Shown here: positions 5,891 through 6,212 of the stretch, one piece after another
Layout: each line of letters opens with the position of its first letter
Position numbering within the stretch: the first letter of the stretch is position 1
NCBI RefSeq assembly: GCF_011045215.1
Contig: NZ_CP049201.1
Source of the DNA: Escherichia coli
Lineage (GTDB): Bacteria; Pseudomonadota; Gammaproteobacteria; Enterobacterales; Enterobacteriaceae
DNA length: 64,000 bases
Strand: one strand, 5' to 3'
Notes under the pieces: model-generated
What the model saw: the letters and a program-made list of their open reading frames with translations, nothing else
The model's database searches: none
What the model was told of the DNA's origin: nothing
Position numbers and translations under genes: made by a program

Positions 5891-6212
5891 CATCAGGTAT
5901 ACACCGCAGCGCCTGATGCGACGCTGTTGTGTCTTATCAGGCCTACGAGTTCAGTGCTGTGTGTAGGTCGGATAAGGCGCTCACGCCGCATCCGACAATA
6001 ACAGCATTATTGCCTGATGCGACGCTGCCGCGTCTTATCAGGCCTACGAGTTCGGTGCTGTGTAGGTCGGATAAGGCGTTCATGCCGCATCCGACAATAA
6101 CAGCATTGCCTGATGCGACGCTTGCGCGTCTTATCAGGCCTACGAGTTCAGTGCTGTGTAGGTCGGATAAGGCGTTCACGCCGCATCCGGCAATAACAGC
6201 CTTGCCTGACGC
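5891..6212. repeat. REP/BIME array, three tandem units of about 100 bp
   Basis: Units beginning near 5911, 6012 and 6109 each contain gcctgatgcgacgct...cgtcttatcaggcctac and ggtcggataaggcg...cacgccgcatccg palindromic REP motifs. Confidence 0.85.

What the first reader, a model, noticed from the sequence alone, without database searches (positions are those of the whole stretch)
5891..6212. Three-unit REP/BIME array between pepA and holC
Three near-identical units of about 100 bp, each built from paired REP palindromes, form a 320-bp array. This is an ordinary E. coli intergenic feature, but the regular spacing could be mistaken for a CRISPR array or coding sequence.
Basis: seen in the sequence. 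Interest (0 to 1): 0.15.

Follow-up and report, generated by a model that had tools for sequence, protein, structure and literature searches.

The report
Ordinary REP (BIME-2) array after pepA
The 320-bp repeat between pepA and holC is a routine E. coli BIME-2 cluster (three pairs of z2 and y REP palindromes), a known kind of intergenic element whose unit number differs between strains, and it is neither a CRISPR array nor a gene.

Summary
Confirmed and ordinary. The 356-bp spacer between holC (5415-5858, -) and pepA (6215-7726, -) holds a tandem array: TRF 5911-6209, period 96, 3.1 copies, 91% match. Each unit is a z2-type REP plus an inverted y-type REP joined by short linkers, which is the published definition of a BIME-2. 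The six REPs match published z2 and y sequences at 34-36/37 and 31-33/35. Six of the eight REP feet in the 64-kb window lie here, against 0.03 expected by chance. It is not a CRISPR array, because the "spacers" are themselves repeated and no E. coli CRISPR repeat is present. It is not coding, because the two ORFs across it match no family. The locus is already catalogued: K-12's one-unit allele is listed as a BIME-2 with mapped gyrase cleavage sites. Across 5,426 complete E. coli genomes the spacer is polymorphic. There are alleles of 1, 2, 3 (commonest, about 45% of a 60-genome sample) and 4 units, related by in-register unit loss or gain. About 26% of genomes carry a BoxC/TMECO triplex motif instead. 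One strain has IS621 inserted exactly in a z2 foot. Likely effects are a gyrase site on DNA, and on the pepA transcript exonuclease-blocking hairpins that also attenuate read-through into holC-valS; the RNA effects are inferred from REP325. Low interest.

The parts
5415..5858 (-). holC (DNA polymerase III chi), the downstream gene
   Evidence: NCBIfam NF004345 at 338.7 bits over the full length; annotated holC in a 99.9%-identical strain
5859..5888 (-). holC leader (AAATGGGGCTTCTTGTGGTGGATTTAAATA on +). It is shared by the BIME and BoxC alleles and conserved across Enterobacteriaceae genera
   Evidence: Allele comparison; cross-genus spacers all end ...GCATTTAAATCCACCACAAGAAGCCCCATAT
5889..5910 (.). 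Degenerate partial unit: a REP-tail remnant CGCATCAGGTA plus a linker-like TACACCGCAGC
   Evidence: In register with the y-foot plus linker of the full units (family D1)
5911..5946 (-). z2 REP no. 1 (GTAG tetranucleotide on the - strand; loop variant TGTT)
   Evidence: 34/37 to published z2 GCCTGATGCGACGCTGGCGCGTCTTATCAGGCCTACG; hairpin -15.9 to -21.2 kcal/mol
5947..5962 (.). Short linker between the CTAC and GTAG feet (GAGTTCAGTGCTGTGT, 16 nt)
5963..5997 (+). y REP no. 1 (GTAG on the + strand)
   Evidence: 31/35 to published y; hairpin about -19 kcal/mol on either strand
5998..6011 (.). Linker ATAACAGCATTATT (14 nt). The extra ATT is absent from the commoner 979-bp-span allele
6012..6047 (-). 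z2 REP no. 2
   Evidence: 36/37 to published z2
6048..6061 (.). Short linker GAGTTCGGTGCTGT
6062..6096 (+). y REP no. 2
   Evidence: 31/35 to published y
6097..6107 (.). Linker ATAACAGCATT
6108..6143 (-). z2 REP no. 3
   Evidence: 36/37 to published z2
6144..6157 (.). Short linker GAGTTCAGTGCTGT
6158..6192 (+). y REP no. 3, the first REP met by the pepA transcript, 22 nt after the stop codon
   Evidence: 33/35 to published y; coordinates
6193..6214 (.). Linker ATAACAGCCTT plus the truncated head of a fourth z2 (GCCTGACGCAA), abutting the pepA stop codon
6215..7726 (-). pepA (leucyl aminopeptidase A), the upstream gene whose 3' UTR is the array
   Evidence: NCBIfam NF002072 at 1093.3 bits
5936..5946 (+). 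IS621 natural target ATCAGGCCTAC (also at 6037-6047 and 6133-6143); these are the only three in the window
   Evidence: target sequence from PMC11208160; an IS621 copy at the equivalent site in strain CUVET20-416
5966..6140 (+). Two Rfam naRNA4 (RF02564) matches at 5966-6044 and 6065-6140, each a y REP plus the following z2 REP
   Evidence: 76.1 and 82.2 bits against gathering 59.5 on the + strand; 55.1 and 51.9 bits on the - strand

Best explanation
It is a BIME-2: a tandem array of three [z2 REP - short linker - inverted y REP - linker] units with degenerate half-units at both ends. It fills the 3' UTR of pepA upstream of holC-valS, and all three genes are on the - strand. SHOWN here: the anatomy; the match to published REP types; the extragenic position; the absence of the IHF-site linker that marks BIME-1; the strong hairpin potential of both strands; unit-number polymorphism among strains that arises by in-register loss or gain of whole units; and use of the z2 foot as an IS621 insertion target. 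SHOWN in the literature for K-12's one-unit allele of this locus: DNA gyrase cleaves within it, and still does so when transcription is blocked by rifampicin. INFERRED: on DNA, each y REP offers a transcription-independent gyrase site, so three units offer about three. On the pepA transcript, the six hairpins block 3'->5' exonucleases, which stabilises pepA mRNA. They also attenuate read-through into holC-valS, partly through Rho, as has been shown for REP325, the six-unit y+z2 array between yjdM and yjdN. The family is thought to be spread by the RAYT/TnpA_REP transposase, while unit number changes locally by recombination or slippage. Identity is near certain (about 0.97). The specific RNA-level effects at this locus are plausible but untested (about 0.5).
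For: REP typing against published y and z2 sequences gives 31-36 matches out of 35-37 positions. The BIME-2 definition is z2 plus y, tandem copies, short linkers, and copy number that varies between strains (PMC3333891). There is no IHF core WATCAANNNNTTR on either strand. The REP foot is enriched 8 against 0.03 expected. The - strand RNA of 5850-6230 folds at -165.4 kcal/mol with z = -7.8, and 0 of 100 shuffles fold as well. Single REPs fold at -15 to -22 kcal/mol on either strand. The spacer has no U-run terminator or sigma-70-like promoter, so any transcriptional effect would come from structure or Rho. In Sutormin 2019 Table DS3, the 'BIMEs2 ... <holC-<pepA' row lists 2 (Cfx), 1 (Rif+Cfx), 0 (microcin) and 2 (oxolinic acid) gyrase cleavage sites, and the text states that y REPs are cleaved far more often than z2. 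REP325 is reported as a partly Rho-dependent attenuator and an upstream mRNA stabiliser (bioRxiv 10.64898/2026.03.23.713779). Alleles of 1, 2, 3 and 4 units keep the end units and have hybrid internal junctions. An IS621 copy is inserted at ...ATCAGGCCT|...|ACGA.
Against: I found no locus-specific RNA evidence. The Adams 2021 tables held as text list only a pepA TSS, with no 3' end for pepA and no entry for holC, and other Term-seq supplements are not held. The element is dispensable. About 26% of complete E. coli genomes carry a BoxC/TMECO motif here instead, and other genera carry different REPs, an ERIC-like element or nothing. The array is oriented opposite to REP325/naRNA4 relative to transcription, since the Rfam model scores best on the antisense strand. 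The REP325 study itself stresses that REP effects depend on context. Gyrase data exist only for the one-unit K-12 allele.
Confidence: 0.85

Rival explanations
1. It is selfish or neutral repeat DNA with no host function at this locus. On this view the BIME is simply tolerated in a permissive spacer, put there by RAYT-type mobilisation, and expanded or contracted by recombination.
For: The spacer tolerates very different contents. E. coli has 1-4 units or a BoxC motif in 1,396 of 5,426 genomes. One strain carries an IS621 insertion. Salmonella arizonae and Kosakonia carry an ERIC-like element, Citrobacter and Kluyvera carry other REP types, and several genera have short REP-free spacers. Only the 30 bp next to holC is conserved.
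Against: Gyrase does cleave K-12's copy in vivo. REPs between tandem genes are associated genome-wide with upstream-biased expression. A y-z2 array at the same position and in the same orientation is kept in E. coli, E. albertii and cryptic Escherichia clades. This rival is not exclusive of the best explanation, because having an effect does not mean being selected for it.
Confidence: 0.35
2. It is a gene for nucleoid-associated small RNAs of the naRNA4 family. The RNAs would be processed from the array and would act with HU to condense the chromosome.
For: Two matches to Rfam RF02564 exceed the gathering score (82.2 and 76.1 bits against 59.5). The architecture is the same as REP325, repeated y+z2 units (PMC4550694 abstract).
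Against: The Rfam model is in effect a generic y+z2 REP pair, so it would be expected to match other BIME-2s as well. The above-threshold matches are on the + strand, antisense to pepA-holC-valS, and the sense strand scores below gathering (55.1 and 51.9 bits). A 2026 study reports that REP325/naRNA4 does not measurably compact the nucleoid.
Confidence: 0.04
3. It is a small CRISPR array.
For: Only the regular ~50-nt alternation of palindromic repeats.
Against: The segments between palindromes are themselves repeated (a whole 96-nt unit at 91% identity), so there are no unique spacers. There are two palindrome types in alternating orientation. The E. coli type I-E repeat is absent even at 3 mismatches. 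The position is fixed between two housekeeping genes in 5,425 genomes.
Confidence: 0.005
4. It encodes a protein: the ORFs at 5929-6231 (+, 100 aa) or 5943-6179 (-, 78 aa).
For: The ORFs exist mechanically.
Against: Neither ORF matches any NCBIfam family. PGAP does not annotate them. They would be destroyed in the 1-unit, 2-unit and BoxC alleles, and their sequence is made of REP repeats.
Confidence: 0.01

Closest known systems
BIME-2 (bacterial interspersed mosaic element, family 2; Gilson/Bachellier classification as restated in Ton-Hoang 2012, PMC3333891)
   Same: It has z2 and y REPs in alternating orientation, a GTAG tetranucleotide at each foot, short linkers, tandem multiplicity, an extragenic position, strain-to-strain variation in unit number, and gyrase cleavage shown for the K-12 allele.
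   Different: Nothing essential. The y REPs carry a compensated foot variant (GGTCGGAT...ATCCGACA instead of GGCCGGAT...ATCCGGCA), and both ends are degenerate half-units. I could not compare the linkers with the named S/s/l/r consensus motifs.
REP325 / naRNA4 locus (yjdM-yjdN; Rfam RF02564)
   Same: Both are multi-unit y+z2 arrays lying between two tandem genes. The Rfam model built from REP325 matches this array above its gathering score. REP325 is the best experimental model for an RNA-level role as stabiliser plus attenuator.
   Different: This array has three units rather than six, different linkers, and the opposite orientation relative to the operon's transcription. No RNA data exist for this locus.
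Strong-gyrase-site BIME-2s such as araD-araA, sucC-sucB and tldD-yhdP (Espeli & Boccard 1997; Sutormin 2019)
   Same: They are the same element type, and the holC-pepA BIME-2 is among those with mapped cleavage sites in K-12.
   Different: K-12's copy has only 1-2 cleavage sites per drug. The three-unit allele in the window has not been assayed.
REPIN/RAYT systems (REP doublets mobilised by a domesticated Y1 transposase)
   Same: Both consist of paired inverted REPs with a GTAG recognition tetranucleotide, which is the presumed substrate of TnpA_REP.
   Different: No RAYT gene lies near the array, and here the unit count changes by local in-register recombination rather than by visible transposition.
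CRISPR arrays
   Same: Regularly spaced short palindromic repeats.
   Different: This array has no unique spacers, no leader or cas context, two repeat types in inverted orientation, and no match to the E. coli CRISPR repeat.

Membership tests
REP (repetitive extragenic palindrome), E. coli y and z2 types | An imperfect palindrome of 30-40 nt with the conserved GTAG tetranucleotide 5' of the stem foot | tested here: met
   Six elements of 35-36 nt, each with GTAG/CTAC at the foot. Each folds as a hairpin with an internal mismatch at -15 to -22 kcal/mol.
REP (repetitive extragenic palindrome), E. coli y and z2 types | Sequence match to the published y and z2 sequences | tested here: met
   The z2 REPs match at 34-36/37 and the y REPs at 31-33/35, using the REP query sequences printed in PMC11208160. 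The cross-type scores are clearly lower.
REP (repetitive extragenic palindrome), E. coli y and z2 types | Extragenic location | tested here: met
   The array lies wholly within the 356-bp holC-pepA spacer.
BIME-2 | Composed of z2 and y REPs in inverse orientation (REP/iREP pairs) | tested here: met
   The order is z2(-) y(+) z2(-) y(+) z2(-) y(+); definition from PMC3333891.
BIME-2 | Multiple tandem copies with short linkers, and no long L linker with an IHF site (the BIME-1 marker) | tested here: met
   There are 3.1 copies. Linkers are 11-16 nt. No WATCAANNNNTTR core is present on either strand.
BIME-2 | Linkers correspond to the named S and s/l/r motifs | not tested
   The consensus sequences of these motifs were not available in the texts I could read; only linker length was compared.
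BIME-2 | The number of tandem units at a given locus varies between strains | tested here: met
   In a systematic sample of 60 of 5,425 genomes, spans correspond to 3 units (27 genomes), 2 units (13) and 1 unit (6). A 4-unit allele is present in L022. The alleles differ by in-register junctions.
BIME-2 | Bound and cleaved by DNA gyrase | not testable with these tools
   Published Topo-seq lists cleavage sites in K-12's one-unit allele of this locus (Cfx 2, RifCfx 1, Micro 0, Oxo 2). The three-unit allele has not been assayed.
naRNA4 (Rfam RF02564) | Covariance-model score at or above the gathering threshold | tested here: met
   82.2 and 76.1 bits against 59.5, but on the + strand only.
naRNA4 (Rfam RF02564) | Match on the strand that is transcribed with the flanking operon | tested here: not met
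   The sense (-) strand scores 55.1 and 51.9 bits, below gathering. No + strand promoter-like site was found in or near the spacer.
naRNA4 (Rfam RF02564) | Processed ~80-nt RNA that binds HU | not testable with these tools
   This needs Northern blots or EMSA. The nucleoid role itself is disputed.
CRISPR array | Identical repeats separated by unique spacers | tested here: not met
   The inter-palindrome segments repeat with the unit, and the E. coli CRISPR repeat is absent.
IS621 target site | An 11-nt target ATCAGGCCTAC with a CT core | tested here: met
   There are three exact copies at 5936, 6037 and 6133. A natural IS621 insertion lies at the homologous site in L008, and the target sequence is given in PMC11208160.

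The most novel reading that the evidence does not exclude
The unit number of this BIME-2 (1-4 units, or replacement by a BoxC triplex motif) may act as a heritable, promoter-independent dial. It could set how much pepA transcription reads through into holC-valS, which encode a replisome subunit and an essential tRNA synthetase, or how much gyrase is recruited locally. On this reading the common alleles would be functionally distinct expression variants rather than neutral length variants.
Probability: 0.15. Interest if true: 0.35.

Novelty: already known. Interest (0 to 1): 0.1.

Why it matters
It matters little as a discovery. REP/BIME elements have been catalogued in E. coli for decades, and this locus already appears in published BIME-2 tables. 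The practical value is in annotation: the array should be masked as a repeat, not called as CRISPR, as an ORF, or as a naRNA4 gene despite the above-threshold Rfam match. The locus does offer a convenient natural allelic series of 0, 1, 2, 3 and 4 units plus a BoxC replacement and an IS621 insertion, all in one conserved spacer upstream of holC-valS. That series could be used to test the recently proposed terminator-plus-stabiliser model of REP function and the dependence of gyrase cleavage on y-REP number.

Tried and rejected
(1) My first degenerate whole-REP pattern found nothing because I set the loop one base too long. I replaced it with the REP-foot pattern.

(2) I looked for a curated REP annotation in K-12 NC_000913.3. 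The held record carries no REP repeat features anywhere in 45 kb, so their absence here is uninformative.

(3) I looked for locus-specific RNA 3'-end data. The Dar & Sorek 2018 and Choe 2022 supplements are not held. The Adams 2021 tables show only a pepA TSS 13 nt upstream of the ORF, with no holC entry.

(4) The paper on REPs close to stop codons causing ribosome stalling (Liang, Rudd & Deutscher 2015, cited from my own recollection) is not in the library. By my recollection of its 15-nt criterion, the first full REP here starts 22 nt after the pepA stop and so falls outside it.

(5) A sigma-70 promoter for holC or an intrinsic terminator for pepA inside the spacer: none was found by consensus scan, and the mRNA strand has no run of four or more T.

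(6) An IHF site, which would indicate BIME-1: none.

(7) CRISPR: rejected.

(8) Coding potential: rejected.

(9) The idea that the alternative 133-bp allele is a dispersed long repeat: at megablast sensitivity it is single-copy at this locus. Only its 34-nt BoxC/TMECO core belongs to a dispersed family.

(10) C>G skew as a Rho-loading hint: there is only a modest C-over-G stretch at 5821-5940 on the mRNA strand (C 0.28-0.29 against G 0.15-0.21), which is too weak to count as evidence.

Full report
OBSERVATION. The sequence at 5859-6214 is the spacer between two - strand genes. The downstream gene is holC (5415-5858; NCBIfam DNA polymerase III chi, 338.7 bits). The upstream gene is pepA (6215-7726; leucyl aminopeptidase, 1093.3 bits). 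valS follows holC. Tandem Repeats Finder reports a single array at 5911-6209 with period 96, 3.1 copies, 91% matches and score 483. The repeat finder shows three in-register copies.

ANATOMY. Each unit has four parts: a 36-nt palindrome reading GCCTGATGCGACGC-loop-GCGTCTTATCAGGCCTAC, a 14-16-nt linker (GAGTTCAGTGCTGT), an inverted 35-nt palindrome GTAGGTCGGATAAGGCG-loop-CGCCGCATCCGACA, and an 11-14-nt linker (ATAACAGCATT). Against REP sequences printed in a published methods section (PMC11208160), the first type matches z2 at 34-36 of 37 positions. The second type matches y at 31-33 of 35, and the cross-type scores are lower. All six carry the GTAG/CTAC tetranucleotide at the foot. The y copies carry a compensated variant of the stem foot, which the Rfam alignment also shows as a covarying pair. 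The left end (5889-5910) and the right end (6193-6214) are degenerate half-units, and the right one abuts the pepA stop codon. The conserved REP foot occurs eight times in the 64-kb window, six of them here, against 0.03 expected by chance. The other two are single REPs at 53004-53017 and 57657-57670.

CLASSIFICATION. Ton-Hoang et al. restate the accepted definitions. BIME-1 is z1 plus y, single copy, with a long L linker that often carries an IHF site. BIME-2 is z2 plus y in multiple tandem copies with short linkers, and its unit number differs between strains at a given locus (PMC3333891). This array meets every feature I could test, and it has no IHF core motif. It is therefore a BIME-2. 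It is not a CRISPR array, because the segments between palindromes repeat along with the unit and the E. coli CRISPR repeat is absent even at three mismatches. It is not coding, because the 100-aa and 78-aa ORFs that cross it match no family, are not annotated in a 99.9%-identical RefSeq genome, and could not survive in shorter alleles.

THE Rfam MATCH. Rfam's naRNA4 model (RF02564) matches 6065-6140 and 5966-6044 on the + strand at 82.2 and 76.1 bits, above the gathering score of 59.5. These are the only such matches in the window. The model was derived from REP325, which is also a y+z2 array, so the model is in effect a generic y-plus-z2 pair. The above-threshold matches are antisense to the operon, and the sense strand scores 55.1 and 51.9 bits, below gathering. 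I read this as independent confirmation of the REP pair architecture, not as evidence for an RNA gene.

POPULATION VARIATION. A query made only of the two unique flanks finds the locus in 5,425 of 5,426 complete E. coli genomes. In the systematic sample of 60 rows, the spans fall into discrete classes:
- 978-982 bp, three units: 27 genomes, including the window's own allele.
- 881-886 bp, two units: 13 genomes.
- 785-787 bp, one unit: 6 genomes, at least three of them K-12 laboratory derivatives.
- 759 bp, no BIME: 13 genomes.
- One interrupted locus.

The E. coli species representative in the genome collection has four units (455-bp spacer, eight REP feet). Decomposing the alleles by diagnostic loop and foot variants shows how they relate. 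K-12's allele is the first z2 joined directly to the last y. The two-unit allele carries a hybrid y with the loop of y-2 and the foot of y-3. Units are therefore lost or gained in register, as expected from unequal recombination or slippage between tandem repeats, and the end units are retained. Mean unit identity within an array exceeds that between arrays in the four-unit E. coli allele and in E. albertii (0.953 against 0.90-0.93). It does not in the window's allele (0.920), so the window's three units are not a recent duplication.

THE ALTERNATIVE ALLELE AND THE IS INSERTION. The 759-bp class has a 133-bp spacer in which everything between ...GGATTTAAATA and ACGCAA... is replaced by unrelated sequence. 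That sequence is present at this locus in 1,396 of 5,426 genomes and is single-copy at megablast sensitivity. Its core, CCCTCTCCCTTAGGGAGAGGGTTAGGGTGAGGGT, is a type-A BoxC/PIT/'TMECO' intrastrand-triplex motif, judged by comparison with Table 1 of PMC4666352. The interrupted locus (strain CUVET20-416) carries an IS621 copy. Its junctions read ...CTTATCAGGCCT|IS621...ACAGTATCT|ACGA.... That places it in the foot of a z2 REP at the published natural target ATCAGGCCTAC (PMC11208160). The window's array contains three such targets, and they are the only ones in the 64 kb.

OTHER SPECIES. A degenerate DNA pattern for the PepA C-terminus retrieved 59 Enterobacteriaceae loci. In 54 of them holC follows pepA, with spacers of 67-455 bp. 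The spacer contents are as follows:
- E. albertii: three y-z2 units in the same position and orientation as in E. coli.
- Two cryptic Escherichia lineages: y-z2 units in the same arrangement (one unit in L038; the L067 record is cut off after its first unit).
- Citrobacter and Kluyvera: single REP pairs of other types, positions and orientations.
- Salmonella enterica arizonae and Kosakonia: an ERIC-like element.
- Pseudocitrobacter faecalis: a tandem array of BoxC-like units.
- Several genera: short REP-free spacers.

Only the roughly 30 bp next to holC (GCATTTAAATCCACCACAAGAAGCCCCATAT-G) is conserved across genera. By inference, the y-z2 array predates the E. coli/E. albertii split, and this spacer is a permissive landing site for several families of small repeats.

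HOW IT PROBABLY WORKS. On DNA, Sutormin et al. found gyrase cleavage sites over-represented in BIME-2s. The sites fall mainly in y REPs and increase rather than decrease when transcription is blocked. Their Table DS3 lists the 83-bp holC-pepA BIME-2 of K-12 with 2, 1, 0 and 2 cleavage sites under ciprofloxacin, rifampicin plus ciprofloxacin, microcin B17 and oxolinic acid. So gyrase acts at this locus in vivo. That the three-unit allele offers proportionally more sites is my inference.

On RNA, the pepA transcript runs into the array 22 nt after its stop codon. The 381-nt - strand segment folds at -165.4 kcal/mol (z = -7.8), and each REP forms a hairpin of -15 to -22 kcal/mol on either strand. 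There is no U-run, no intrinsic-terminator-like site and no sigma-70-like promoter in the spacer. The best experimental analogue is REP325. Deleting it lowered the upstream yjdM mRNA, raised downstream yjdN about ten-fold, and its attenuation was partly Rho-dependent. In the same study, REPs between tandem genes were associated genome-wide with upstream-biased expression, with much context dependence. Dar & Sorek summarise the related view that REP hairpins define stable 3' ends after Rho-dependent termination further downstream. I therefore commit to a dual role at this locus: a gyrase site on DNA, and on the transcript an exonuclease barrier for pepA mRNA plus an attenuator of read-through into holC-valS. 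The RNA part is inferred. I found no locus-specific 3'-end data, and the array is oriented opposite to REP325 relative to transcription.

The main rival is that the element has no selected function here. That fits its dispensability in a quarter of strains and the varied contents of the spacer in other genera, and it does not exclude incidental effects.

VERDICT. The finding is real and correctly interpreted, and it belongs to a long-known class at an already catalogued locus. Its only added value is as a natural allelic series for testing REP function. Interest is low.

Noticed in passing
L004:986-1092 and L006 (same spacer as window 5889-6208): In 1,396 of 5,426 complete E. coli genomes the BIME is replaced by a 103-bp single-copy segment. 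Its core CCCTCTCCCTTAGGGAGAGGGTTAGGGTGAGGGT is a type-A BoxC/TMECO intrastrand-triplex motif, flanked by the inverted CCTCACCCTAA / TTAGGGTGAGG. K-12's published list of 23 TMECOs does not include this locus, because K-12 has the BIME allele.
   Followed up: partly
L008:4301-5837 (E. coli CUVET20-416): An IS621 (IS110-family, bridge-RNA recombinase) copy is inserted in the holC-pepA BIME, exactly at the z2 foot ATCAGGC-CT-AC. The window's array carries three identical target sites, at 5936, 6037 and 6133.
   Followed up: yes
window 5859-5888, and the holC-proximal end of the spacer in L009-L066: About 30 bp upstream of the holC start codon (GCATTTAAATCCACCACAAGAAGCCCCATAT-G) is conserved across Enterobacteriaceae genera, while the rest of the spacer turns over completely. 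This may be the holC ribosome-binding region, possibly with a promoter -10 or another regulatory site. No sigma-70 consensus hit was found.
   Followed up: partly
L027, L058, L059 (Salmonella enterica arizonae, Kosakonia) and L020 (Pseudocitrobacter faecalis): In other genera the same pepA-holC spacer holds an ERIC/IRU-like element (AATCCCCAGGAGCATAG...TGACTGGGGTG) or a tandem array of about four BoxC-like units with a period of about 62 bp. The spacer seems to be a recurrent landing site for unrelated families of small repeats.
   Followed up: partly
window 6974-7168 (+): Rfam Ysr276 (Yersinia antisense sRNA family RF02850) matches at 184.7 bits (gathering 100) on the strand antisense to pepA. 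This may simply reflect conservation of the pepA coding sequence.
   Followed up: no
window 13183-13267 (+): tRNA-Leu(CAA), i.e. leuX by position, lies only about 5.5 kb beyond the pepA start, against about 10.5 kb in K-12 MG1655. This strain therefore lacks roughly 5 kb that K-12 has between lptG/yjgR and leuX (the idn gene region in K-12). leuX is a known island integration site, so the downstream window may be strain-specific.
   Followed up: no
window 53004-53017 (-) and 57657-57670 (-): These are the only other REPs in the window: a z2-like single REP (GCCAGATGCGACGCTGACGCGTCTTATCTGGCCTAC) and a canonical y single REP (GCCGGATGCGGCGTGAACGCCTTATCCGGCCTAC).
   Followed up: partly
window 5542-5513 (-): A sigma-70-like site (TTGCCA-18-TAGACT with an upstream TG) lies inside the 3' part of holC, in a position to drive valS independently of holC. 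It is a consensus match only.
   Followed up: no
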